From: an uncultured delta proteobacterium
GTDB lineage: Bacteria; Desulfobacterota; Desulfobacteria; Desulfobacterales; JAHEIW01
Assembly (NCBI GenBank): GCA_963706575.1
Contig: CAVPNL010000006.1
Location: forward strand, 544,001 to 608,000
Length of the DNA: 64,000 bases
Direction: 5' to 3'
The first letter of the stretch is position 1; every line of letters begins with the position of its first letter. Position numbers and translations under genes: made by a program. The notes below the pieces were generated by a model. The model searched no databases. It was not told where the DNA came from and was given only the letters and a program-made list of their open reading frames with translations. Positions 21,517 to 35,658 of the stretch are shown here, in pieces.

Positions 21517-21996
21517 TTAAAATGTGAATAAACCCCCAAGGAGCAAAATAATCATCGCCAAAATAACCAGGGCAGCGATGATGATGTTACGCTTTTTGGT
21601 TGGCGACTGTTTTTTAATAGCTTTCTTTGGGGGCATTTTCTCTTCGGTACGAATGGTATGTGTTTTTTCAGCAGAACGGGCGCGAAAAAAACTGGCCGGG
21701 GGAGGGGTATCCGGCGGTTCGAGTTTGGGCCGGGGCCGGTCGGCCATCGGCTGCGGTTCGCGGGTTTGATCATCGAATGGGTCGGCGACAGTTATTTTTT
21801 TTTCAGTTTCCGGGCTTAAATCCGTGGGTTGGTGGCTGTCATGCGGTGGCGGTGAATCCGGTGGTATGGTCAAATAGGCGTCGTCAAGTTGCTGGGAATC
21901 GGCTGCGATTTCAGCCCCGCAATGAGGACAAAAACGGTAGCTCAGAGTTTCCACTTCCGGCAGCGGCTTGCTGCATTGGGGGCAAAAAGGTTCCAT
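21517..21996 (-). CDS. Zinc-ribbon protein with Pro-rich linker and C-terminal TM anchor
   Basis: CPQC...FCPHCG; hydrophobic C-terminus IIIAALVILAMIILLLGG. Confidence 0.75.
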   Translation of the reverse strand: MEPFCPQCSKPLPEVETLSYRFCPHCGAEIAADSQQLDDAYLTIPPDSPPPHDSHQPTDLSPETEKKITVADPFDDQTREPQPMADRPRPKLEPPDTPPPASFFRARSAEKTHTIRTEEKMPPKKAIKKQSPTKKRNIIIAALVILAMIILLLGGLFTF

Positions 21997-22253
21997 ATCT
22001 CACACGGCGTTTGTGCTCGAAAAGGGTTAATCTTAATTCATGGTTTCAGGTTTCAGTCACCGGGTTCAAAGGTTCAACGTTCAATGGTTCAGAGGTTAGA
22101 AAAAAGAAGACAGATGTCAGAGGGCAGATGACAGATGAAAATCGGAAAGTAGGGCAGCCCTCTGCGGCTGCCGAAAACAGCGACCGGCAGCCAGATCCCA
22201 TAACCTTTGAACCTTTGAACCCCTGAACGCTGAACCTCAGAACCTTTGATAGC

Positions 22254-23252
22254 CTACCGATACGTATTCAACCCCACAAAAGTGCCGCCGTTTTCCCGGC
22301 ACAGGACGCGCATTAAAGTGGCAAAACGTTCGCCGGTGTTGCCGCGCGCCTGGGTTTTGGCCATTACCACTGGAAAACCGACGGCATGTATCCGGACGCG
22401 CCGCGAGCCGTCTTTTGTCCGTTTGTTGATGCGATCCACGGTGTCGATGACCGGTTGAATCCGATGCCCGCTGAATTCATCACCAAAAACATACAGACTT
22501 ATTTTCTTATCTGTTGCATAAAATGTTCTGATCGCAGCGGTGATGCCCTCAACCGGGCTGCTGTTGCTGAACGCGCGCCAGGAGCTGAGTCTGGAAATAA
22601 TGGCCCGGCGGCGGGCGGGTGTGTCCGGAATCCATTTGCCCCGGTATTGTGAAAACATATATTCGCCCATATCGTTCATAATTTGAATGCCCTTGACTTT
22701 CGGGTATACATCCAGGGTTTCTCTTAACTTTCTCTGCACCAGAGGCCAGGCGTTGCGCTGCATGCTGCCCGAGGTATCGATAATAAAGATAATGTATTCG
22801 CTGTCTACCGGAATGCCGCCGACGGAGCGATCCATTTTTCGGGGCTGAGTTTTCAGCAGGCGCCGCATCTCTTCGGTTAATTCCTGCATGGCGCGGGCCA
22901 GTTTGCCTTCAATAATATTTTGCACCTGGGCGGTGTCTTTTGAGCCCGCAAACTGGCCTTCAATTTTGGACAGATCTCCCTGCAGTCTTGCCAGCCGGAT
23001 TTTTTCTTCCGACAGTTGCTCATTCTTGGCCGTCAGGTCTCGATTCAGTATGGCGGTTTCGCCCCGGATTTCCACCAGCTCTTCTTCGAGCCGGATTATT
23101 TTGGCTTCCAGATCGACTTTAACTTCTTCGATAATCAACGGTTCGGCGAATTTGGATAATACAAACAGCAGAATCACAGCTCCGAATCCGCAGCAAATGC
23201 AGTCCAGAAACGATAGGCTGAATATTTGTATGTCTCTTCGGCGCTTTCTCAT
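22254..23252 (-). CDS. TM(Asp)-coiled-coil-vWA protein
   Basis: N-terminal FSLSFLDCICCGFGAVILLF, heptad-rich stalk, MIDAS IIDTSGSM. Confidence 0.85.
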   Translation of the reverse strand: MRKRRRDIQIFSLSFLDCICCGFGAVILLFVLSKFAEPLIIEEVKVDLEAKIIRLEEELVEIRGETAILNRDLTAKNEQLSEEKIRLARLQGDLSKIEGQFAGSKDTAQVQNIIEGKLARAMQELTEEMRRLLKTQPRKMDRSVGGIPVDSEYIIFIIDTSGSMQRNAWPLVQRKLRETLDVYPKVKGIQIMNDMGEYMFSQYRGKWIPDTPARRRAIISRLSSWRAFSNSSPVEGITAAIRTFYATDKKISLYVFGDEFSGHRIQPVIDTVDRINKRTKDGSRRVRIHAVGFPVVMAKTQARGNTGERFATLMRVLCRENGGTFVGLNTYR

Positions 23253-23324
23253 TATCTTAGCAACACGATCTCAACAAACATTTGGCCAATACTGTTACAT
23301 CCACACGCGGTCCCCAGCAGCCGG

Positions 23325-23448
23325 ATTTAGGAGCGCTATCGCTTGAGGAGCGCTGCGCTTTAAGATCAGAATCGTCTCAACCTTAAGTTCCAAAGGAACG
23401 CTCCTCGAGGCTCAGAGAGCCGCTCATAGAAGCCCGCAGGGCTGCTCA
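23325..23448. repeat. GAGC 9-mer/hairpin convergent array (second copy)
   Basis: TTTAGGAGC-GCTATCGC-TTGAGGAGC-GCTGCGC ... inverted units shared with 9175-9302 and 51288-51355. Confidence 0.7.
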
Positions 23449-23505
23449 TTTTTACTTTGCCATAGGCAATAAAACCGCAATCCAAAATCCGAAATCCAAA
23501 ATCCT

Positions 23506-24594
23506 CTATGGCCAATCCTTCGAAGGCGCAAAAAAAGAACCGCGGGTGCTTTTTGCCAGACGCCAGTAAGCATCGGCGGCCAGCGGGTCGCCTTCCATGG
23601 GATATAAAATAATATTGACCGGTGCGCCCGGAAGCTTGCCGATGGCATCATTAAACAGGCTTAGGCGTTTTTTACCGGACACCCGTTTGCGCCAGGGCTT
23701 GCTTGACCCCATGGTCGGCAGACCGTCCGTCAGCAAAAAAATATTGTCCGGTGCGGGCTTCATCGCAAGCATGGCGGTGATTGCGTTTAAAAGGCTGGTG
23801 CCTTTTTCCGGAACGACGCTGCGGATTTGATCTGCGGACTGGTTGAGTTGATCCACATTACCGGCATCCAGCCAGGTTCCCTGGGTGTTTTTGAGTAAAG
23901 GGGCGGCAGCTTCGTTAAAGGCATATATCTGGAATTGGCTTGTTAGTGGAAGCTGGGTGCTCAACCAGTTAACAGTGGCAACGACCTGCTGCCATTTGCT
24001 GGATTTTATTTTTTCTTTAGCGCTGAGGTTACGCCGCCGAATAATTCCAACGACCGTCTCATCGAGCATGCTGGCGGAGGCATCCACCAGAATAAATATG
24101 CGCCGGCCGCCCATCTTTAAATCGGTTAAATACTGACGGTCCCCATGTCCGGGGAATTTTTGCAGCCGGCTGCCCATGTCGTCCTGGGTCTTGGCACCGG
24201 CTCTCAGTCGCTTGAGTTCTTCTTCCAAAGATTTCAGATCGGCCTTTAATTTGTTGACATGTGTCTTGGTGGCCAGAGTATCATCTTGTCTGTCGGCCAG
24301 CTCGATCTTCTTTTGTTCAAGAATATCTATGATTCTGCGAGATAGACCTTGTGTGCGGACCAGAGTCGTTTCTGTGTGTTCGATGGCATTGCGGGCCTGG
24401 ATTAAATCTTTTTTTCCTTCCAGGACTTCATGCTCCATGCGATCCACCTCAGCTCGAAAATCCGAGGTAATCGAGTCGCGCTGGGCGGCACTCTTGGCAT
24501 TTACCAGCACAAACAAAAGGATGATCGCCCCCAACCCGCAGGTAATAATATCCAGAAAGGATAAGTTGAACACATTGACCGATCTACGTTTCAT
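23506..24594 (-). CDS. TM(Asp)-coiled-coil-vWA protein (paralog)
   Basis: MKRRSVNVFNLSFLDIITCGLGAIILLF; MIDAS DASAS...GTS...LLTDG; start overlaps the stop of the upstream gene. Confidence 0.85.
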   Translation of the reverse strand: MKRRSVNVFNLSFLDIITCGLGAIILLFVLVNAKSAAQRDSITSDFRAEVDRMEHEVLEGKKDLIQARNAIEHTETTLVRTQGLSRRIIDILEQKKIELADRQDDTLATKTHVNKLKADLKSLEEELKRLRAGAKTQDDMGSRLQKFPGHGDRQYLTDLKMGGRRIFILVDASASMLDETVVGIIRRRNLSAKEKIKSSKWQQVVATVNWLSTQLPLTSQFQIYAFNEAAAPLLKNTQGTWLDAGNVDQLNQSADQIRSVVPEKGTSLLNAITAMLAMKPAPDNIFLLTDGLPTMGSSKPWRKRVSGKKRLSLFNDAIGKLPGAPVNIILYPMEGDPLAADAYWRLAKSTRGSFFAPSKDWP

Positions 24595-26005
24595 CAGCTT
24601 CGCTATCCAGACACGCAATGAGGTTAAAAATCTCACCCGGTGTTCCCACCCGGACCTTTTGCCCCAGCAATAAATTGGTTTGCCCTTTTACCGGATTTTC
24701 ATCCACGAAAGTACCGTAGGTGCTGTGGTCGTTTAGAACAACCTGGTTTCCCCGCAATTGGATAATGCAGTGTTTTCTGGAAACCCCGGCGATCTTCCCC
24801 TGAATTTGGATGCCCGATTCACCGGCAACCTTTTCCAGGCCAATGATTAAGGGCTTTTTCGTTATGGGATACGCCAGATGGCGATATAGGATGTGGGTGG
24901 GTTGTTGTTGTCCCTCGGCGGCTTTTCGGGGTTCTTCATATGATATGGAACCATCATTCGGCAGCGGGCGTGAGGTCAGGAAAGGCGCGCTGCTCCCGGC
25001 CTGCTGTTCAAACAGCGGACCGGTGAATTTCAGGATTCCCAGTGCACCGGCGCCGGGTTGCAGTTCAATGATACTGCAATTTTCGATTCCAGCCATCATT
25101 TCTTTTATGCCGGGTAAACGGGCAATCCGATCTGTGAGCATCAAAACCGGTCCGGCTCCCGCCTTTCCATGACGCTCATAAACGCGGCTAACAAGACGAC
25201 GCATTTGCTCAAACACGGGCGCCCCTATTTTGAAAAAAAGATCGCGCCTCAACGTTACGTGATATACTTTGGATCCGCCCGTCATTTCAAAATAGACGTC
25301 GGAATCCCTGCAAAGCTGTCTCAAAATACCGGGCAGGCGGTCATAGAGCTCCTGTTCGGTGGCGGCCTGGTGCAACGGGTCAAACCGGGTGCTGCGCACA
25401 AATTCTTCTGCAATGGCATCCACCCATCTTCGATATAATTTACTGAGGCCAGTTCCTTCTGACGATATCGAATTTTTTCGGTTTAACTGATCCGCCCGCT
25501 CAAGGCGGGTAACTTCAAAGCGGTGCAAATGCAAATCCAGGTGCAATAACAGTCCTTCTGGCAGTCGCTGCGGAACCGCTGCGACTGCCAGGGGAACAAA
25601 ACCTTTTACCGGCATGCCCAGCTCCTGGGCGATCCCTAAAATAAAGCCTAAATGCTCCCGGGTATAAAAACCCGGAACGCCAATAACCATTTCCCTTCCT
25701 TGATGCTTTACGGTCTGCCAGATGCGGGCAAAATGCGCGAATGCGATTTCAGCGTGATTCTGCGCAAACGGATTGGGTTGTTCTAAGGGTTCGATATTCA
25801 ATTGGTCCCAGAATTTATTTAGCGTCTGCCGGGGATACAGGTGCGCTTTTCTTTCAGCAGCTACGCCGACAATTAACCCCTGTTTTTCTGCTAAGGCAAA
25901 TCCGGGGCTCTCAACGCTGTTTCCGTCAACCTTCAGCAATCCGGCCGGTTCGGCTCCGGCGACCAGGATACCGGCGTCACTGAGTTCAAGGCCTAATAAA
26001 CTCAT
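24584..26005 (-). CDS. Hsp70/actin-fold-like domain fused to C-terminal FHA domain
   Basis: LGLELSDAG, VIGVPGFY...IAQELGM, LLHLDL align by eye to DnaK NBD motifs; C-terminal VSRKHC...DHSTYGTFVD FHA motif. Confidence 0.7.
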   Translation of the reverse strand: MSLLGLELSDAGILVAGAEPAGLLKVDGNSVESPGFALAEKQGLIVGVAAERKAHLYPRQTLNKFWDQLNIEPLEQPNPFAQNHAEIAFAHFARIWQTVKHQGREMVIGVPGFYTREHLGFILGIAQELGMPVKGFVPLAVAAVPQRLPEGLLLHLDLHLHRFEVTRLERADQLNRKNSISSEGTGLSKLYRRWVDAIAEEFVRSTRFDPLHQAATEQELYDRLPGILRQLCRDSDVYFEMTGGSKVYHVTLRRDLFFKIGAPVFEQMRRLVSRVYERHGKAGAGPVLMLTDRIARLPGIKEMMAGIENCSIIELQPGAGALGILKFTGPLFEQQAGSSAPFLTSRPLPNDGSISYEEPRKAAEGQQQPTHILYRHLAYPITKKPLIIGLEKVAGESGIQIQGKIAGVSRKHCIIQLRGNQVVLNDHSTYGTFVDENPVKGQTNLLLGQKVRVGTPGEIFNLIACLDSEADET

Positions 26006-26086
26006 ACAACCACCCTTTCTAATGATGGCTCAAAATCCGAAGATTTGTTTAATCCGCAATCCGCAATCTAAAATCCAAAATCGGGA

Positions 26087-26890
26087 TCATTTTGTATACA
26101 AATGACTGATCAGATTTTCATCACAGTAAGTTTCCGCATCCAGCACGTAGTGCTCCTGCAGCTGTTGCAATTGATGCAAAAGAAACATCAGTCCAATACT
26201 GATTAACAGTGCGATCAACGTTGAATTAAATGCGACACCCAGGCTGCGGGTAACGTCAAAGATGTCGCCTTCAATGGCTTTATGCGCCTGGCCCAGCGCA
26301 TCTCCGATCCCCCGAACCGTACCGATAAACCCGATTGATGGGATGGCCCAGGCGATATAACGTATCATAGATAATTCAGACTCAAGTCTTTCAGCTTCTG
26401 AATCGCAGTAGGCATGTGTGGCGCTGGCAACATCCTGGATGTTGCGCGTTGTGCTGAACCGCTGCAAGCCTGCCAGCAATGCCCTGGGAAGCAGCGCCTC
26501 GCGTTGTTGTGCGGGCAGGGCCTGAATCTGCCGGGATACATCCCGGGTGTCTTCGGGCAGGATGCGCTCGCCTTCAGCCAACGGAATCAAGTCCATCTGC
26601 AGCAAGGCCCTTTGCCGCGAGGTTTTAAAGGCTTTATACCCCATGATGGCAATTGCCCAGAACATCAGAATAAAACAGGCTTCCTGTTCATAATCACGGA
26701 TTAACACGAAAACAGAGCGTTCCGTTACCTGGGCTTTGTTTTCTGCCATCTGAATGGCCTGCTGTGCCAAAATGGCGTCCGCCCTGGGCCGAATCATGGC
26801 CACATAAATGGCATGTACAATAATCACGATGATGATCAACGCAAACACCTGGTAAAGGAACTCGAAAGAAAAGGGAAAACTTTTTTTCAT
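26087..26890 (-). CDS. MotA/TolQ/ExbB proton-channel family protein
   Basis: AIPSIGFIGTVRGI and LGVAFNSTLIAL TM signature. Confidence 0.9.
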   Translation of the reverse strand: MKKSFPFSFEFLYQVFALIIIVIIVHAIYVAMIRPRADAILAQQAIQMAENKAQVTERSVFVLIRDYEQEACFILMFWAIAIMGYKAFKTSRQRALLQMDLIPLAEGERILPEDTRDVSRQIQALPAQQREALLPRALLAGLQRFSTTRNIQDVASATHAYCDSEAERLESELSMIRYIAWAIPSIGFIGTVRGIGDALGQAHKAIEGDIFDVTRSLGVAFNSTLIALLISIGLMFLLHQLQQLQEHYVLDAETYCDENLISHLYTK

Positions 26891-27018: not shown

Positions 27019-27471
27019 CTAAATGTCGTATGGAAAATCGACCGCCTGTTCCGCTTCAATTTTTTCCGAAGGTTGAAAATCTTTTAACGGTTTTTTGACA
27101 GCGGTTGATTCTTTCTCTTCATCGGTTTTAGATTCGGGTTCTGTGCTCATCGGCGACGGTGTCTTTTTTTCATCGGTCGCCGTCTGGGTCTCGTTCTGCG
27201 CAACAGTTACCCGAGATGGATTAGAAATGGTTTCAAAACCCCATCTAAGGCCCAATGGCTGCGTTGCAGGCCTCCGATAAATGCTCACATACCCATGTAT
27301 GCTGCGCTTTCTCGATCGGCCTGCGCCTTGCCCTTGAACCTGATCTGAGATTTTGAAACCACTTCTATATGTATCCGCCCGAACATCCCATTTTACAATA
27401 ACCAGAAAGCCCAGCAGTGCAACACCGATTATTGCCAACTTTTTGAATCCTGCCAATGTTTTCACGATCAT
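27019..27471 (-). CDS. Hypothetical single-TM/secreted protein with C-terminal FQPSEKIEAEQAVDFPYDI motif
   Basis: Hydrophobic N-terminus, low-complexity linker, located within the operon; start may instead be 27492. Confidence 0.65.
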   Translation of the reverse strand: MIVKTLAGFKKLAIIGVALLGFLVIVKWDVRADTYRSGFKISDQVQGQGAGRSRKRSIHGYVSIYRRPATQPLGLRWGFETISNPSRVTVAQNETQTATDEKKTPSPMSTEPESKTDEEKESTAVKKPLKDFQPSEKIEAEQAVDFPYDI

Positions 27472-27493: not shown

Positions 27494-29932
27494 TCATTTG
27501 ACGTAGCGACATACACGAAACCCAAGATCCGGTCGTTTGGCGTCGCTGTAATCCCGATACGCCAGCCTTAATTTGCTCATGCCGGCATATTTCCAGCTGG
27601 CACCTTTAACCACATGATGCTTTCCATCGGGAGGTCCGGCTGGATCGATATCGGCTTTATTGGTATTATAGGTATAAATTGTATAAAAGTCATGGCACCA
27701 TTCCGCGACGTTGCCGCCCAGGTTATATAACCCCAGATCATTGGTCTTAAATTTTGCCGCCGGCGCCGTGACCGGGTAGCCATCGCTGTAATTTTCAATA
27801 TAAGCCGGCAACAGTTTTTGGGCCGACGTATCGGCATAATTTCCGGAAGGCGAAGTCGGCGGAAACTGATTCCCCCAGGGGTATTTGAGAGCGCTTTGAT
27901 TTCTTGTGAATCGGGCGCAATATTCCCATTCGGCCTCGGTAGGCAACCGATATCCCGTACCGATGGGCTCAGCAGCGACCAGGCGGCCGCCCTTTTTAAC
28001 ATAGGCGGGTGGCAAAGATTCCTTGGCGCTGAGCCAGTTACAGAACAACGCCGCCTGCTCCCATGTCACCTGAACCACGGGCTGATCGTCCTGTGACAAA
28101 CGCTGTCCTTTGAAGGTACCGGAATTGTGACTGGACAAAAATTGTTTAAATTCTTTATTGGTTACTTCCCATTTGCCCATATAAAACGGTCGTTGCAGAA
28201 TAATTTTTCGAAGTGTTTCGTTGGTGCGGCGGCCTTGTTCCCGGCGCGAAGAGCCCATGGTAAAAGGTTCGGGGCGGACGAGTTTCAGCGCATATCCATT
28301 TTGAGCTGTGATAACACCAGCAGGACCGGTGGGGTCGGATTTCAGACGGCTTAACGTAATTTTGATTTCTTGCGGAAATCCGGGGCGCGGGGTGACGCGG
28401 GTTCCATAGGGCTCATATCCTTTTTTTATAATTTCCAACTGGTGGCTGACCGCCACCAGCTTTAATTCCGGCGGAACTTTCCCCTGATTTTTTCCGTTTA
28501 AAACGAGCTGGGCATCGGCCGGCACAACTTGGAAGCGAATAACCCCCATTCTCGGTTTCAAATCCACAGCCAGATTTTTCATCTTGCCGGTAGCCACCTG
28601 AACCCGGCGAGATTCGTTTTCATAACCGGCCTTGGAAATTCGAATTTCATGTTCGGTATTTGCGGACAGCTTGACCTTTAAAGGTGTTTTACCGACAAAT
28701 TTTTCGTCGATGGTTATATTGGCGCCGGCAGGCTGAGTTTGCAGGGCCAGGGTACCGTCGTCCGGCTGAAGCCGGATATCTTTTATGGATTGGGGTTGAT
28801 TCGGCGCCACTGCCAGCTGAGTCTGCCAGGTTTTAAATCCCTCAGCACTGATTTGCAGCCGGTAGTTTCCTTGCGGCAATTCAATTGTCAAAGGGGTATT
28901 GCCTGCCGCTTTTCCGTCAATGGATATAAAAGCCCCTTCTGGAATCGAACTGATAAACACATCAGACCAGCCGGGGACAAGCGCAAAATCAAAGGATTGT
29001 TCTTCCGGACAACCGGCGATTTGCACTTCTGTTTTGATGTCCTGGTAATTATCCATTTGAATTTCTAAAATCCGTTGGCCGGCTTTTACTTCAAGGTCTG
29101 AAACGGGTGTGATACCGACTTCCGATCCATCAATGATGACCCGGGCGCCGTTGACAAAGGCCGTCGGATCACCGGCTTGATGAGCCTGTAAAGAAATGCG
29201 TCCGGGGAGTCTTTCCATTTGAAATCGGAGCGTCTGGCTTTTGTCTGTCCCCACCTCAAAGGGCTGTTGTAATGCAAAATAGCAGTCTTTAGAGGCATGC
29301 AGCGTATACGTTCCGGGCCGCAGTAGAAAATGCCCGCCAAATCTGGGGGCAATCAGGCTGCCGCCAATGGAAATTTGATCCGGCTGGGGCTCAATCTGGA
29401 TCATGATTTGCCTGGCAGTAAAGACAAACCAGGCGGCGATAATCAGCAAAAGGAAACTGAGTCCAATTGTTAATCCGATGAATCGCCGATAGCGGCGGAT
29501 TGAACCCGCAGCAGGTCCTCGCCGTTGCGGCCGAAAGGACAGGGGCTTGATTTTTAATGCCGCATCCTCGCCGGTGACAGTCGGCGTCCTATCCGTATCG
29601 GCTGCTGTTTGGCGGGAGACGACTTCGATGATAAATTGGCTGCCTTCAACCTTAAAATTAATTTTGCAGGAGCCGATTTCAAGCAGATCTGCATGCATCA
29701 ACCAGGCGGAACCATCCAATTTTCGGTGATTATGTTGCACCGCAACATCAGATTGGCCGACTTGCACAAAAGGCCGCTTTTGCGACAAGCCGATATAGGC
29801 AACTTCCGTTTCGGTTTTGAGATCGCGGATCCGGATGTTTGCCGTCGGACCGGCTCCGATAATAATCGGAAAGCCTTCTTCAGCCACGCTGCGTTCACCG
29901 CTGTCATCTCGGATTTTATAGCGGATTTTCAA
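27494..29932 (-). CDS. FHA-like + TM + multi-PEGA + FGE-sulfatase(SUMF1)-fold protein
   Basis: Repeated SxPxGA.I.IDG...G.TP PEGA units; FTMGS, EVTN, PVVQVTWEQA..FCNWLS, YRLPTEAEWEY, GNVAEWC, GFRV. Confidence 0.88.
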   Translation of the reverse strand: MKIRYKIRDDSGERSVAEEGFPIIIGAGPTANIRIRDLKTETEVAYIGLSQKRPFVQVGQSDVAVQHNHRKLDGSAWLMHADLLEIGSCKINFKVEGSQFIIEVVSRQTAADTDRTPTVTGEDAALKIKPLSFRPQRRGPAAGSIRRYRRFIGLTIGLSFLLLIIAAWFVFTARQIMIQIEPQPDQISIGGSLIAPRFGGHFLLRPGTYTLHASKDCYFALQQPFEVGTDKSQTLRFQMERLPGRISLQAHQAGDPTAFVNGARVIIDGSEVGITPVSDLEVKAGQRILEIQMDNYQDIKTEVQIAGCPEEQSFDFALVPGWSDVFISSIPEGAFISIDGKAAGNTPLTIELPQGNYRLQISAEGFKTWQTQLAVAPNQPQSIKDIRLQPDDGTLALQTQPAGANITIDEKFVGKTPLKVKLSANTEHEIRISKAGYENESRRVQVATGKMKNLAVDLKPRMGVIRFQVVPADAQLVLNGKNQGKVPPELKLVAVSHQLEIIKKGYEPYGTRVTPRPGFPQEIKITLSRLKSDPTGPAGVITAQNGYALKLVRPEPFTMGSSRREQGRRTNETLRKIILQRPFYMGKWEVTNKEFKQFLSSHNSGTFKGQRLSQDDQPVVQVTWEQAALFCNWLSAKESLPPAYVKKGGRLVAAEPIGTGYRLPTEAEWEYCARFTRNQSALKYPWGNQFPPTSPSGNYADTSAQKLLPAYIENYSDGYPVTAPAAKFKTNDLGLYNLGGNVAEWCHDFYTIYTYNTNKADIDPAGPPDGKHHVVKGASWKYAGMSKLRLAYRDYSDAKRPDLGFRVCRYVK

Positions 29933-32340
29933 ATCTTAACCTCGCATCTGATGGTCACGCGTAGCGCGTTTTGCCCGGGTTTGATGATGATCTTTTTGCG
30001 GACATCCTGGTAGCCATCGCGCGTTCCCACAACGGTATAGGTGCCGGGCCGCAGGCTCAGTTCCCGGCTCTCGAAGCGGCCGAATTTCCCAACTTTATAA
30101 ACAGCAACGTCCGTAAACGTATCGGATTCGATAATTATTTTTACCGGGGTTTGAGCAGCACCCACGATTTGAACAAGTCTCTCGAATCGTTCTTTGATTT
30201 GCGGACCTTTGGGGTCAATTTTTTCAATTTCATCAATGAGCGCAATGGCGTTTTGAAGCTGGGGATCTGATTCCAGTACTGCCGGCTGTTGCAGAAAAAA
30301 ATTAATGCGCTTGTCAATCAGAATGCGCTCCCGGGCGCGTTCTTTCCCCCGGGCGGCAAACTGGACATTGGCGTCTATTTTAATAACCTGCAAATAGGCA
30401 TCCAACGCCTGTTGCCAGTTTTCAGCCTGTTCTGCCGCGGTCGCCTTTTGGCGATAGGTTTCAATGCGGGCCAGGCGAATCGCTTGATCCACCTGGGCCA
30501 GTGCGTCCTTAACTTCTCGGGATTCCGGCCGGAACGATTTTGCTTTCAGCAGTTTTGCCCGGGCAAGTTGATAGTCATTCCGATGCAGCGCCGTCAGTCC
30601 CTCAGACATCAGCAGCTGAAATTCTGTATCACGGATTTGGCCTTTAACCCGGGCGACAGCCTGCCGCGCTTCTTTTGATTCGGGGTCCAGTCTCAGCGCC
30701 TCCTGATAATCGGCATGCGCAAAAGCGATTTTACCCGCTTTTTCATGACGGTTCCCTGATTCCAACAGCTGCAGGACAGCATCTAAATTTTTGGCGCGCT
30801 GGCGGCTGTTGCGGGCTAACCGGTTCTCTGGATCAATCATTAAGGCGATGGAGAATTTTTGCTGGGATAGCTCAGCGTTTCCCTCATCCAGTGCCGTCTG
30901 GCCCTCGGCAAGCAGTTGTTTTAGAACCGGCTCGATCTGGTCGACTAAGGTTTGAGCGCTGGCGGCTGCGGCCGCATATTTTTCGGCGGCTGCGGCATAA
31001 TCGTTTTCAAGTAAAAGTCGATCCGCTTCCTCCGAAAGTTGGATCATTTCGACATATACTTGATTTCCCCATTGCGAAACACCTTTTGCATCCAATTCCT
31101 GTTTGAGCTGCATAAATTCAGCCAGCTTTTTCTCCGCTTCCCTTTTTTCAGCAGCAATCTTGGCGGGGTCCGGTGCGGTTTCGGGTAAAGCCTCAGGTGC
31201 CTCGATGGCCTTTTCAGATTCGGGTTGATGCGCTTCGCTATGCGACATTTCCGTCCGGCCCGGTTCCGGCGGTTTTGTGGGTAGATATTGCCACAGCCAT
31301 AACCCGCCGGCCACCAATACGACTAACGCGATAATTAGGGTCGCACCTTTGATCAGGTTGCTGTGCCCGGTTAAAGGCAGCCCTTTGCCGGGAGCCTTTG
31401 GCGTTACCCTTAGCGGGGTAATAATTTCCGGGCGGACCGGGGCCGAATTTGGCTCCGCAAAGCCGGAACCTGACCTCTGCGACAACCGGCGATGAGCGAC
31501 ACCATTGTCAAGCATGCGGTCGAAGCGGCTTTCGATCGCTGCCATGCTGGATGGGCGATCAACGGGTGTCTTCGCCAGCATGCTGTCAATCAGATCTTCC
31601 ATGGAGTCGGAGACCTGGGCATCAATGGCCAGCTGGTTTAACCGGCGGTTAACAGGAATAGGAGACTCATGCAGAATTCTTTCACGGGTAATATCCGGAT
31701 AAAACGGTGGATAACCGGTGAACAGTTCATAGAGCAGGACGCCAAGGGCGTAAATATCGTCGGATGGATGGGGCGGGCGGCCCTCAAGTTGCTGCGGGCT
31801 CATGCAAAACAGCGAACCGCCGGATGTAATTTCCAGTGCATAGCGGCCGGATTTGAAAACGCCGGCAATCCCAAAGTCTGTCAGCCGGGGTGTTTTCTGC
31901 GCATCAAGCAAAATATTGCCGGCTTTGACGTCTCGATGGACCAGCCCCTGTTCATGGGCATACCCCAGGGCGTTGATCAGCGGCCGAATCAGTTTGATCA
32001 TGTTCACGCTACTATTGGGTTCGAACTCCCTGCGGTGAAAGGCCAGGTCTCTACCGTTGATATATTCCATGGAGATGAACGCCAGCGCATCAGATCGATG
32101 AAAATCAAAAACGCGGACGATGTTGGGATGGACCAATAGACGGGTATTGCGGCATTCATTTTTTAATAGATTGATGCGGTCCGGATCTGATGCCAGCTGT
32201 GGATTTAGAATTTTTATGGCGATCTGGATTTCAAGCTCCAGATCCCAAACGAGCCAGACCTGCCCCATGCCGCCTTCTCCGATCATCTCAAGCAGCGAAA
32301 ACCGAGAAAGCAGTATTTGGTCTTTTTCTAAATTCGGCAT
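29929..32340 (-). CDS. Membrane Hanks-type Ser/Thr kinase with periplasmic TPR-like region
   Basis: GEGGMGQV, IAIK, HRDVKAGN, DFGIA, MSPQQ, DIYALG; TM at ~aa 333-352; helical repeats. Confidence 0.92.
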   Translation of the reverse strand: MPNLEKDQILLSRFSLLEMIGEGGMGQVWLVWDLELEIQIAIKILNPQLASDPDRINLLKNECRNTRLLVHPNIVRVFDFHRSDALAFISMEYINGRDLAFHRREFEPNSSVNMIKLIRPLINALGYAHEQGLVHRDVKAGNILLDAQKTPRLTDFGIAGVFKSGRYALEITSGGSLFCMSPQQLEGRPPHPSDDIYALGVLLYELFTGYPPFYPDITRERILHESPIPVNRRLNQLAIDAQVSDSMEDLIDSMLAKTPVDRPSSMAAIESRFDRMLDNGVAHRRLSQRSGSGFAEPNSAPVRPEIITPLRVTPKAPGKGLPLTGHSNLIKGATLIIALVVLVAGGLWLWQYLPTKPPEPGRTEMSHSEAHQPESEKAIEAPEALPETAPDPAKIAAEKREAEKKLAEFMQLKQELDAKGVSQWGNQVYVEMIQLSEEADRLLLENDYAAAAEKYAAAAASAQTLVDQIEPVLKQLLAEGQTALDEGNAELSQQKFSIALMIDPENRLARNSRQRAKNLDAVLQLLESGNRHEKAGKIAFAHADYQEALRLDPESKEARQAVARVKGQIRDTEFQLLMSEGLTALHRNDYQLARAKLLKAKSFRPESREVKDALAQVDQAIRLARIETYRQKATAAEQAENWQQALDAYLQVIKIDANVQFAARGKERARERILIDKRINFFLQQPAVLESDPQLQNAIALIDEIEKIDPKGPQIKERFERLVQIVGAAQTPVKIIIESDTFTDVAVYKVGKFGRFESRELSLRPGTYTVVGTRDGYQDVRKKIIIKPGQNALRVTIRCEVKI

Positions 32341-32556: not shown

Positions 32557-33777
32557 TTATGGGTTTTGATCCATATCCTGTTCTTCAGGAGACGGGGTCG
32601 GTTCAAAGCCGGTTTCGGCGAAATAAATTTGACGCAGCAGCGCTTTCCAGCGTTTAAACTGCTCTTCAGCAGACCCGGTCAATTCATACTGCTGGCCCTC
32701 GAATTCCATTGTTACAGGTTGCATTTCATTCCCAAATGACTCGCTGAGTTCCTCGATTGCAGCGGAATGCATTTGGGCTTCTTTGGATACATTCCAGCCG
32801 CTGATAAATACCTGTCCCCCGATAATGACCATCGCCGGCGCCATGGCCCGGCCGATGTTTGAGTTTTGTGAACCGGCCGCTATCGCGCCGGCAATTAACA
32901 GGGCGCCGAGCAGCTGTTTGGTCATGGCTTCTCGTTTAATCGTTGCGGCGGCTTCGCGTTCGGTCAGGTTCAGCTGACGCCAATTTTCGTATGACGGCCA
33001 CATTTGATTGTAAAACCCATCATATTGCCGATTGAGGGTGTCCACGTACATATACTCACGCTCTCTGATTTTCAGCAATCGGGCCATCATGGGATCATTG
33101 TCCGCCGGCAGCCGCTTGACGCTGAGGCGTCCCTTTTTATCCTGCGCGAGATAGCCATCAAATGCATCCGGTGCAAACTCCTGGGCAAATTTTAGCTTCG
33201 AAACGGTTCGAATCGTTTTAATTTCGGCAACACCTTGTTTCAATTTGTATTTAGCCAGATCATTGGCAATGGTATTGTAGAGATTTTGATAGGCATCTTT
33301 TTCACCCACCCGATTGCCGGAATAGTCAGACGCTGAAGCCTCGGCGCTGTATTTTCGCTTAAACCACCGGTTACCGGTTGCATCCACCACATCGATCTCT
33401 ATCACCAAATCCTCACCATTTGACTCGAGAATTTTGCCTTTCACCAGAAGGTCGACACTGTTCGTTTCGGCCGGAACCACCTGGATGGCGCCCCAGTGGC
33501 CGCTCTGGTGCAAGGTGTTTTTCAGGTGATAGGGAATAAAGTGGGTTTCAGCCTTGCGGATATCTGAGCTTGTGCCTTCATCCTTGGCATCTTCGGGGGT
33601 CAATTTCTTGCTTTCGAAGACCAGGATGCCGATATCCATTAACTGCTCCTCCGGGATTTCGGTTTTGGCCTGCTCGATGGGGGTCGGGCCGACCGTGTGA
33701 GAACTATAGGTGGCGCAGCCTGAAAAGAAGAGGATGGCCGAAAAAAATAATACGGTTTTGTAAGTGTTGAATTTCAT
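32557..33777 (-). CDS. Hypothetical lipoprotein
   Basis: Signal peptide with lipobox FFSGC; 406-aa ORF in the operon. Confidence 0.8.
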   Translation of the reverse strand: MKFNTYKTVLFFSAILFFSGCATYSSHTVGPTPIEQAKTEIPEEQLMDIGILVFESKKLTPEDAKDEGTSSDIRKAETHFIPYHLKNTLHQSGHWGAIQVVPAETNSVDLLVKGKILESNGEDLVIEIDVVDATGNRWFKRKYSAEASASDYSGNRVGEKDAYQNLYNTIANDLAKYKLKQGVAEIKTIRTVSKLKFAQEFAPDAFDGYLAQDKKGRLSVKRLPADNDPMMARLLKIREREYMYVDTLNRQYDGFYNQMWPSYENWRQLNLTEREAAATIKREAMTKQLLGALLIAGAIAAGSQNSNIGRAMAPAMVIIGGQVFISGWNVSKEAQMHSAAIEELSESFGNEMQPVTMEFEGQQYELTGSAEEQFKRWKALLRQIYFAETGFEPTPSPEEQDMDQNP

Positions 33778-33791
33778 TTTTTATTAATTTG

Positions 33792-34931
33792 TTATTGGGT
33801 GTTTTTCTTATACTCTTCGTATTCTTTCCACAGTTTTTCTTTCAGTTCCGGATCCGTTTCGTTTTCAGCCGCCTCCCGCAGTTGTCGGGCAACGATATCA
33901 TCGTCTTCCTTGCTGTAACGGCTACCCGGTTCGCGTTTGGAGCCGGCGCCTTCGTCTTTGGACTTGTCGGCCGTGGCGACCGTATCATCGCCATTTCCCT
34001 GTTGGTTCTCGGAGCCTTTTTCATCACGGGATGCATCCTTGTCACCCGTTTTGCCTTGCTGGCCTTCCTTGTCCTGCTCTGACGTCTCATCAGCCGATTC
34101 AGATTCGTCGCTGTCTATTTCGACGCCTTTTTCCTTTAGCCGTCTGGCGGCATCCGCTGCTTCCTGGGCCAGATCACGCATTTTCGCAGTCGATTCGGTT
34201 TCGATGGTCTCCATTTCCTTTAGCAGCAGTGCATCAAATTCACTCAGCGACGCACTCAGCTGGCGGTCCAGTTCCGCGACCTGATCCTGGACTTGCTCTT
34301 CAGGGATTTGTTGATCCGATACCTTCGGTGGTTCGCTGGAATCTTCTTTGCCAGATGAATGCCTGGCGTAGGCGCTTTCCATTTTTGCGACCATCCTGCG
34401 GTTTTCAGCGACCATGGCCTGGACGCGTTCAAGGTAGGCTTCGTAGTTGCGAATTTCTTCAGCAGAGGCATTATCGGATTTCTTGAGTGTTTCAAGTTCG
34501 GCAGCAATCCGTTTTTCCGTGGCCTGGCTGACGCGCAAATCGTCCCGGGCTTTTGCCAGTTTGGCGTCAGCGGTTTGCGGGGTTGTTTTGCGGCTCTGCG
34601 GCATGCGTTGAACGGCTTCCTGCGGTCGGGCTTCGGTTGCACCCGCTGAAGCGGTTTGACGATCCGGTGATCTTTCTTTAGATTCCGACTGTTGGGTAGC
34701 AGCCCCCTGTGGAGAAGCTGTCTGGCTGGTTTGCGATTTTTCCTGTGCTCCCGGTTCGGCCGACTCGGCCGGTATCGATGAAGTCGACGGGCTGGTATCT
34801 TTGGTTTGCGAGATTTCCGGCTGCGGAGGTGCAGGTGTAACCGGGGGGGGTGTGGTTTTGCAGGCTGCAAACCACAGCCCGGTCAAGAAGGTTGCCATTA
34901 ATATCAGGGATTTGATTTTGTATTGCCACAT
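33792..34931 (-). CDS. Hypothetical lipoprotein, Pro-rich/coiled-coil
   Basis: Lipobox FAAC; coiled-coil segments; C-terminal DDIVARQLREAAENETDPELKEKLWKEY. Confidence 0.78.
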   Translation of the reverse strand: MWQYKIKSLILMATFLTGLWFAACKTTPPPVTPAPPQPEISQTKDTSPSTSSIPAESAEPGAQEKSQTSQTASPQGAATQQSESKERSPDRQTASAGATEARPQEAVQRMPQSRKTTPQTADAKLAKARDDLRVSQATEKRIAAELETLKKSDNASAEEIRNYEAYLERVQAMVAENRRMVAKMESAYARHSSGKEDSSEPPKVSDQQIPEEQVQDQVAELDRQLSASLSEFDALLLKEMETIETESTAKMRDLAQEAADAARRLKEKGVEIDSDESESADETSEQDKEGQQGKTGDKDASRDEKGSENQQGNGDDTVATADKSKDEGAGSKREPGSRYSKEDDDIVARQLREAAENETDPELKEKLWKEYEEYKKNTQ

Positions 34932-35218: not shown

Positions 35219-35311
35219 TGGCGGAGAGACAGGGATTCGAACCCTGGATGGAAGTTTCCCCCCATACTCGCTTAGCAGGCGAGTGCCTTCAGCCAGCTCG
35301 GCCATCTCTCC
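35219..35311 (-). tRNA. tRNA-Ser(GCT)
   Basis: GGAGAGATGGCCGAG...CTCGC-CTGCTAA-GCGAG, long variable arm, GGTTCGAATCC, CTCTCCGCCA. Confidence 0.96.
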
Positions 35312-35361
35312 AAAAAAATTTTCTCAAAATTTTTTTATATAAAATTGCGAAGCAATTTTAT

Positions 35362-35449
35362 TGGCGGAGGGAGTAGGATTCGAACCCACGGAGGTGTTAC
35401 CCTCAACGGTTTTCAAGACCGCCGCTTTCGACCACTCAGCCATCCCTCC
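35362..35449 (-). tRNA. tRNA-Ser(TGA)
   Basis: GGAGGGATGGCTGAGTGG...GCGGT-CTTGAAA-ACCGT, long variable arm, GGTTCGAATCC, CCCTCCGCCA. Confidence 0.96.
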
Positions 35450-35658
35450 ATTATTATTATTAACCACTATATTTACCATTCCGGTCGGAGATGGTCAATA
35501 TTTATGTACTTTTTAGAGCGCTGATATTTATCAAGAGCCTTGCACCTTGTGCCGATTTTGTTTGCATTATGTGTTGACAGGCTTGATTTTTTATGGTTTT
35601 CGAGATCGTTAAAAACATGCAAATCAATTTGTTTTATTCGACTGGAAAAGGAGCAAAG

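What the first reader, a model, noticed from the sequence alone, without database searches (positions are those of the whole stretch)
22254..26890. Two vWA proteins carry an ExbD/MotB-like transmembrane aspartate: candidate heterodimeric 5:2 motor tipped with MIDAS domains
Seen: both vWA proteins start with basic residues, then F(S/N)LSFLD..xCG(F/L)GA.ILLF (Asp17 and Asp15) at the start of a single TM helix. A long coiled coil and a vWA domain with DxSxS follow. No conventional ExbD is present beside the ExbB-like gene. Established: MotB/ExbD/TolR have one conserved TM Asp that conducts ions inside a pentameric A ring, and Myxococcus AglRQS pairs one TolQ-like with two TolR-like subunits. Inference: these are the missing B subunits, with a metal-dependent adhesion domain in place of the peptidoglycan- or TonB-binding domain.
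Basis: inference. Interest (0 to 1): 0.72.

Follow-up and report, generated by a model that had tools for sequence, protein, structure and literature searches.

The report
Ion-motor axle pair with vWA heads
Two neighbouring genes encode membrane-anchored proteins with a conserved buried aspartate, a long stalk and a vWA head with metal-binding motifs; they likely form the two-part axle of an ion-driven TolQ/MotA-type motor, a design that a 2025 paper predicted by computer and for which I found no experimental test.

Summary
Both proteins (22254-23252, 23506-24594) have a basic N-terminus, one TM helix carrying Asp17/Asp15, a ~100-residue helical stalk and a vWA head with full MIDAS motifs. The Asp was kept in 184/184 and 163/163 locus homologues; one exception occurred among 111 distant representatives. 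The adjacent MotA/TolQ-family gene keeps both pore threonines and has no ExbD/TolR/MotB neighbour; the genome's four other such genes have one. In 400 genomes, 36/36 with this A-clade had the TM-vWA genes. Against: the TM segment is not significantly similar to ExbD by profile comparison, and I could not run the docking. The idea is already in print as predicted 'TPH-vWA' motors (PMC12204202), and this scan noted it on other DNA many times. Verdict: new member of a predicted, untested class; function inferred.

The parts
22254..23252 (-). B subunit 2 (TM Asp17, ~104-residue stalk, vWA with D159-x-S161-x-S163, S231, D258)
23506..24594 (-). B subunit 1 (TM Asp15, ~100-residue stalk, vWA with D171-x-S173-x-S175, T266, D290)
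24584..26005 (-). Cytoplasmic degenerate Hsp70-like domain plus C-terminal FHA; accessory (Hsp70-like part in 71/79 loci, FHA on it in 32/79)
   Evidence: best Hsp70 hit E 1e-3, weak
26087..26890 (-). A subunit, MotA/TolQ/ExbB family, 267 aa; invariant P184, G187, G190, T191, N222, T224, near-invariant S223; extra N-terminal TM helix with invariant Q14 and H26
27019..27468 (-). Small protein with a hydrophobic N-terminus (likely signal peptide), a low-complexity linker and a conserved C-terminal 19-mer (F-x-P-S/T-E-x-I-x-x-D-x-x-V-x-F-P-x-D-I-COOH); here it carries an in-frame repeat insertion. Start codon uncertain.
   Evidence: (95/98 loci by pattern, the other 3 show variants)
27494..29932 (-). 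FHA-like N-terminus (weak hit), TM 152-170, PEGA repeats, C-terminal FGE-fold domain (GldK-like hit below cut-off)
29929..32340 (-). Ser/Thr kinase (HRD and DFG intact), TM 329-347, TPR/helical periplasmic part; the TPR part is in 79/79 loci, the kinase fusion in 15/79
32557..33777 (-). Lipoprotein (Cys21): CsgG/PelC/FlgT/TolB-N-type domain at 44-181 plus a long helical hairpin at 229-350 with a Gly-rich tip
33792..34931 (-). Lipoprotein (Cys24), mostly low-complexity, with a conserved C-terminal ~34-residue helical motif
   Evidence: (70/79)

Best explanation
The two vWA proteins likely pair as a heterodimeric axle whose Asp-bearing helices are predicted to sit inside a pentamer of the neighbouring TolQ/MotA-like protein, forming a likely ion-driven 5:2 rotary motor whose periplasmic vWA heads would grip a protein partner through their metal sites. 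Steps. (1) Shown: the anatomy, the invariant Asp and Thr residues, the absence of a canonical B gene, the tight A-B co-occurrence and the old paralogue split. (2) Inferred from TolQR, ExbBD and MotAB (about 0.88): the helices insert in the pore and ions pass via Asp15/Asp17 and the T191/T224 ring. (3) Inferred (about 0.8): one copy of each paralogue, as modelled for AglQ/AglS. (4) Inferred (about 0.5): the ~15-nm stalk works as a drive shaft like GldM rather than a wall anchor. The IM-anchored TPR and PEGA-FGE rods would brace the A ring, and the heads would pull on or turn a partner at the CsgG/PelC-fold lipoprotein, which would be the outer-membrane ring. My preferred ligand (about 0.2) is the acidic C-terminal 19-mer of the small secreted protein. 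(5) The kinase and FHA domains are an optional control layer (variable presence shown, role inferred). The ion is open: Na+ about 0.45, H+ about 0.55.
For: Asp conservation. T191 and T224 align to E. coli TolQ T145 and T178 (alignment; roles in PMC12583513) and are kept in 67/67 and 56/56. The other four MotA/ExbB genes of the genome each have a TolR, ExbD or MotB neighbour. An ExbD/TolR HMM found no hit in 160 loci. In 400 genomes, 36/36 with the A clade had the TM-vWA genes, 36/37 conversely, and 35/37 A genes lay within 3 kb of one. The A-B link survives a change of neighbourhood: in L241, L242 and L256 a related A gene lies with a single TM-Asp/stalk/vWA gene among FHA, PP2C and trypsin genes. 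B1 and B2 each form one side of a branch, 17 rows each, support 100/100 and 100/99. Positive-inside topology: 5 versus 2 and 3 versus 2 K/R. MIDAS residues are kept in both heads. Published AF3 docking exists for a class with the same features. T9SS parallel: an 18-nm GldM shaft and an FGE-fold PorK ring.
Against: Profile comparison of the TM segments with ExbD/TolR is not significant. No ExbD or MotB family appears among the top 25 Pfam families for 94 and 74 members. One representative of 111 lacks the Asp. TolQ E173 is Val219 here, though PomA also has Val there. One of seven second-tier A genes (L257) shows no TM-Asp vWA gene within 6 kb. The ExbD HMM came from Desulfobacterota sequences and had no positive control on other phyla in that call. 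No evidence links the heads to any particular partner.
Confidence: 0.6

Rival explanations
1. The 5:2 complex is real but works as an envelope sensor, in the manner of ZorAB. The heads are fixed to an outer partner, the A ring turns or the channel opens when the envelope is disturbed, and the signal passes to the cytoplasmic Hsp70-like, FHA and kinase parts.
For: An intact kinase and FHA domains lie in this locus. 14/15 kinase-fused loci carry FHA on the Hsp70-like protein, against 18/64 of the others (kin not independent). The single-B sister loci are surrounded by FHA, PP2C, trypsin-FHA and kinase genes. The distribution is patchy: 4/201 and 39/400 genomes.
Against: The kinase is fused in only 15/79 loci and the Hsp70-like gene is missing in 8/79, while the TPR and PEGA-FGE genes are in 79/79. 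A has no long cytoplasmic tail. Five of 8 cluster proteins have no PADLOC hit; vWA2 has only weak coiled-coil hits and the kinase generic ones. Gene order is stable and no variable effector was seen.
Confidence: 0.22
2. The two paralogues are alternative homodimeric axles (A5B1B1 or A5B2B2) that give the motor two specificities.
For: A single-B sister system exists, so one gene can suffice. No heterodimer test was possible.
Against: Both genes occur together in 101/107 loci, and the 6 others end at contig edges (positions). The clades are old and each keeps its own residues. A heterodimer is modelled for AglQS (PMC11761067).
Confidence: 0.1
3. The vWA proteins are plain membrane-anchored adaptors. 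The Asp is kept for another reason, and the A protein works alone or with an ExbD/TolR from elsewhere in the genome.
For: No significant sequence similarity to ExbD, TolR or MotB. Canonical ExbD/TolR genes exist in trans.
Against: An invariant charged residue in a TM helix, strict co-occurrence with one A clade, the same link in a different gene context, and published AF3 docking.
Confidence: 0.08

Closest known systems
Predicted 'TPH-vWA' force transducers beside tolQ-like genes (Williams-Jones et al., Mol Biol Evol 2025, PMC12204202, section 8 and Fig. 4c-d)
   Same: TM-tethered vWA, heterologous pair, conserved TM Asp, tolQ-like neighbour, no tolR/exbD, no SHLS motif, conserved Thr ring.
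   Different: The paper names Proteobacteria and Verrucomicrobia, calls the motor PMF-driven, and its main text has no occurrence of PEGA or kinase, so the surrounding cluster, the Ser223 hydroxyl and the single-B sister are not discussed there. Sequence identity with its Idiomarina query could not be checked.
TolQ5R2 and ExbB5D2
   Same: A subunit is PF01618; best PDB hit is TolQ (E 0.0025); the Thr pair is kept; B has one TM helix with Asp.
   Different: B has a stalk and vWA head instead of the ExbD domain; two different B genes; TolQ E173 is Val; no TolA/TonB-type SHLS helix was seen in the cluster's single-pass proteins.
Myxococcus AglRQS
   Same: One A gene, two B genes, modelled as a heterodimer in a pentamer (PMC11761067, passages).
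   Different: AglQ and AglS keep TolR-like periplasmic domains; the Myxococcus vWA protein CglB is a separate outer-membrane lipoprotein (abstract start).
PomAB / MotAB and ZorAB
   Same: The P-x-x-G-x-x-G-T-x-x-G motif and the last-helix register A-x-x-[ST]-T match PomA P151, G154, T158, A182, T185, T186.
   Different: No OmpA-type wall-binding domain on B, no flagellar genes nearby, no ZorA tail.
T9SS GldLM/PorLM with the GldK/PorK ring
   Same: Works-like analogy only: a long periplasmic axle (18 nm versus about 15 nm) and an FGE-fold protein in the system.
   Different: GldL has no obvious homology to MotA (PMC9389320); here the FGE domain is IM-anchored on PEGA repeats and scores far below the GldK cut-off (137 versus 350).

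Membership tests
TPH-vWA class (PMC12204202) | TM-tethered vWA domain | tested here: met
TPH-vWA class (PMC12204202) | Tight co-occurrence with a tolQ-like gene | tested here: met
   36/36 genomes; 35/37 within 3 kb
TPH-vWA class (PMC12204202) | No syntenic tolR/exbD/motB | tested here: met
   0 ExbD/TolR HMM hits in 160 loci; MotB was not scanned across the loci
TPH-vWA class (PMC12204202) | Conserved TM aspartate, no SHLS motif | tested here: met
   no His in either TM helix
TPH-vWA class (PMC12204202) | Heterologous pair | tested here: met
   20% identity over 310 columns, E 1e-31; separate clades
TPH-vWA class (PMC12204202) | Thr ring in the A subunit | tested here: met
   T191 and T224 in 67/67 and 56/56, mapped on TolQ
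TPH-vWA class (PMC12204202) | Helices dock inside the pentamer in a structure model | not testable with these tools
TPH-vWA class (PMC12204202) | Homology to the paper's Idiomarina query | tested here: inconclusive
   accession not in the text or the held supplements; no Idiomarina name among listed relatives
ExbD/TolR (PF02472) | ExbD periplasmic domain and Pfam match | tested here: not met
   no hit; the fold is vWA
ExbD/TolR (PF02472) | TM helix homologous to that of ExbD/TolR | tested here: inconclusive
   Asp registers on Asp, but the score is within the shuffle range
MotA/TolQ/ExbB (PF01618), A subunit | Pfam match over the cut-off | tested here: met
   51.4 bits against a cut-off of 22.9
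vWA with MIDAS | DxSxS...T/S...D | tested here: met
   B1 D171, S173, S175, T266, D290; B2 D159, S161, S163, S231, D258; metal binding itself not tested
Na+-coupled 5:2 motors (PomAB type) | Three hydroxyls at PomA 158, 185 and 186 | tested here: inconclusive
   T191, S223, T224 by motif register; but 10/25 ExbB/TolQ controls also have Thr at the middle position
Zorya ZorAB | ZorA/ZorB models, wall-binding domain, effector genes | tested here: not met
   no Zor hit in PADLOC for 8 cluster proteins; the B head is vWA

The most novel reading that the evidence does not exclude
The nine genes encode an undescribed trans-envelope machine: a Na+-driven TolQ-clade motor turns a rigid heterodimeric shaft whose two MIDAS heads seize the acidic C-terminal 19-mer of a small secreted protein and drive it, or cargo tied to it, at an outer-membrane ring of the CsgG/PelC-fold lipoprotein. 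It would be a T9SS-like engine built from Tol parts, one branch of a wider clan of atypical 5:2 motors (single-B and Glu/Asp-pair variants seen here).
Probability: 0.15. Interest if true: 0.8.

Novelty: new member of a known kind. Interest (0 to 1): 0.42.

Why it matters
The known 5:2 motors power flagella, nutrient uptake, outer-membrane upkeep, gliding, secretion and phage defence. This class was predicted in 2025. Seven literature searches showed no other paper on it and no experiment. It was found in about 1 in 10 of 400 genomes of one large class and in Desulfobacterota, Alphaproteobacteria and Myxococcota records, so an abundant envelope machine has no known job. An axle tipped with integrin-like heads is also a good object for seeing 5:2 rotation, which PMC9389320 (2022) says had not been observed directly. 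The core idea is published, so this locus is an example, not a discovery.

Tried and rejected
ESM Atlas gave no answer for P0001 or P0126. Profile comparison of the TM segments with 31 ExbD/TolR sequences was not significant. A PDB sequence search with the vWA2 profile gave only coiled-coil noise among the 60 rows shown. The lipoprotein profile found nothing in PDB or Pfam by sequence; only the fold search was informative. No plasmid match. Expression: RNA-library contigs of relatives cover 30/30 bins in X1 and X6, 15/30 in X12 and 21/30 in X13, but they may be DNA, so this is no evidence of transcription. Promoter-like sites, 18 against 13.2 +/- 3.6 by chance, are uninformative. The MoxR-vWA conflict systems were considered and rejected: PMC7159879 and PMC8195603 have 0 occurrences of MotA, ExbB or TolQ, and no MoxR is in this cluster. 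An enzymatic role for the FGE domain is unlikely: only one Cys column is conserved in 94 sequences (the need for two catalytic Cys is recalled). Rows dropped: alignment A1 left out P0136 (no Asp), P0137 and P0217, so the invariance of D17 in A1 is partly by selection and the unselected count is 110/111; L076 was left out of A2; L209 was left out.
Full report
Observation. The window is from a Desulfobacterales-like genome: the nearest named relatives are Desulfobacterales, and aprA, qmo and sat lie upstream (read from the translations, names from recall). All stated features are present. The vWA2 model is one helix from residue 12 to 123 followed by a vWA fold. The stalks are 104 and 100 residues, about 15 nm, with a/d hydrophobicity of 0.67 and 0.64 in the best heptad frame. 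The two proteins are full-length paralogues at 20% identity.

The aspartate. It was kept in 79/79 (vWA2, of 80 loci) and 73/73 (vWA1, of 76 ORFs) full-length homologues from GTDB loci, and in 105/105 (of 107 hits) and 90/90 (of 102) from a second set of loci. Among 150 representatives at the 50% level, 111 cover the N-terminus and 110 have it; P0136 has Ser. Against the reading: hhalign of the N-terminal 40 residues with 31 ExbD/TolR sequences scored 15.05 and 13.73, inside the range of shuffles (means 12.7 and 12.8, maxima 27.5 and 22.7), though both best alignments put Asp on TolR Asp21. Homology to ExbD is therefore not shown by sequence.

The A subunit. It is PF01618, and its profile finds only TolQ in the PDB (E 0.0025). 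That alignment maps T191 and T224 on TolQ T145 and T178, which contact TolR D23 and are essential (PMC12583513, passages). Both are kept in 67/67 and 56/56. The genome has five such genes; the other four sit beside TolR, ExbD or MotB-like genes. An ExbD/TolR HMM found nothing in 160 loci.

Co-occurrence. In 400 genomes of the class of G201 (probably Gammaproteobacteria; the tool does not name it), 39 had the TM-vWA genes and 36 had the main A clade. All 36 were among the vWA carriers, and 35 of 37 A genes lay within 3 kb of a vWA gene; G547 had only a vWA fragment. One row of these tallies is G244, an unpublished genome. Kin are not independent. In the window's phylum 4 of 201 genomes had the pair. 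A tree of 38 rows puts B1, B2 and the single-gene sisters on three separate, well-supported branches, with a long-branch warning.

The cluster. Nine genes run on the minus strand from 34931 to 22254, and the order is largely conserved. Of 160 loci, 79 span lipoprotein to vWA2. All 79 have the TPR, PEGA-FGE and vWA1 genes, 71 the Hsp70-like gene and 70 the second lipoprotein motif; 15 have the kinase fusion. A small gene between PEGA-FGE and A ends in a conserved acidic 19-mer: 95 of 98 loci by pattern, with variants visible in the other three, and one strict hit in the whole genome. The 406-aa lipoprotein model (pLDDT 86.5) matches the flagellar LPHT-ring chain 8z5n (Z 10.4, rmsd 5.0, 171 aligned; FlgT by Foldseek), PelC (Z 9.8, rmsd 2.5, 110), TolB-N (Z 9.2) and the curli complex (Z 8.9). 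Several of these form rings, but a shared fold shows no function.

Ion. By motif register, A's P184, G187, T191, A220, S223 and T224 match PomA P151, G154, T158, A182, T185 and T186. Those three hydroxyls form the Na+ site in PomA (bioRxiv 2022.11.25.517900, passages), and an extra polar residue separates Na+ from H+ ZorAB (PMC11890865, passages). S223 is kept in 67/67 and 55/56. But 10 of 25 ExbB/TolQ controls also have Thr there, and B-subunit residues also affect selectivity (PMC10341847, passages). This is a lean only.

Sister systems. Seven second-tier A genes were found. Three lie with one TM-Asp/stalk/vWA gene among FHA, PP2C and trypsin-FHA genes (L241, L242, L256); one has such a gene on another contig (L243, L259); two are cut short by the contig or the fetched range (L258, L260); one shows none within 6 kb (L257). 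The A-B link thus outlives the gene context in most but not all cases.

Mechanism. I commit to a 5:1:1 ion-driven motor with a shaft-like axle whose MIDAS heads grip a periplasmic partner, braced by the TPR and PEGA-FGE rods and acting at a lipoprotein ring. Anatomy, conservation and linkage are shown; docking, stoichiometry, rotation, ion and partner are inferred. The T9SS gives the nearest working analogy (PMC9389320 passages; PMC12421860 abstract), and AglRQS the heterodimer precedent (PMC11761067 passages).

Prior knowledge. Earlier scan notes led to PMC12204202. I read its abstract, section 8 in full, passages, and searched the held supplement. It describes the same design with AF3 docking and no function. 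Fig. 4 and the SI 3 model files were not visible, so the figure may show more of the cluster than the text does, and identity with its Idiomarina query is unverified. Searches listed no other paper on this class. A search of scan notes for the Na+ idea found none.

Verdict. Real, well supported, already predicted in print and noted before by this scan: a new member of a predicted class, interest 0.42.

Noticed in passing
window 27222-27367: A ~146-bp MITE-like element with 38-nt imperfect terminal inverted repeats, inserted in frame (144 nt longer than the L001 orthologue) in the small gene; 67 matches of 110 nt or more on 15 contigs, the self match included.
   Followed up: partly
L244-L255 and L261: A third tier of related A genes (AFDTT motif). 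In 12 of 13 fetched loci it is followed by a ~175-aa TM protein (10 with a TM Glu, V/I-E-I/V-F-G) and a ~570-aa TM protein (LADILAN), usually then a weakly FGE-like gene: a candidate further atypical heterodimeric 5:2 motor.
   Followed up: partly
L241, L242, L243, L256: Single-axle sister system: A gene, FHA, PP2C, trypsin-FHA, one TM-Asp/stalk/vWA gene, and a kinase in some.
   Followed up: partly
window 26680-26890 (A subunit residues 1-70): Extra N-terminal TM helix with invariant Q14, L18, H26, R34, P35 and a D66-x-E68-Q69-E70 patch (67/67). The central His recalls the TonB/TolA helix (recalled, untested).
   Followed up: no
window 33792-33920: The C-terminal ~34-residue motif of the 379-aa lipoprotein (DDIVARQLREAA...) is near-invariant in the 47 of 70 loci matched by pattern, while the rest of the protein is low-complexity.
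   Followed up: partly
G000:C3:249100-251508: The flagellar motA and motB each appear as two overlapping ORFs, from frameshifts or assembly errors.
   Followed up: no
window 22062-22249: Short-repeat-rich inverted repeat just downstream of vWA2, arms of 29-32 nt; probably another dispersed element.
   Followed up: no
window about 35220-35450: A stretch upstream of the cluster with high summed contig depth and many joints in all four runs laid, like a second multi-copy element.
   Followed up: no
window 21517-21996: Zn-ribbon/Pro-rich/C-terminal TM gene after vWA2, found in only 5 of 80 loci, all close relatives; not core.
   Followed up: partly
L076:6686-8914: The A subunit and the Hsp70-like protein read as one 743-aa open frame; L104 may be similar.
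   Followed up: no
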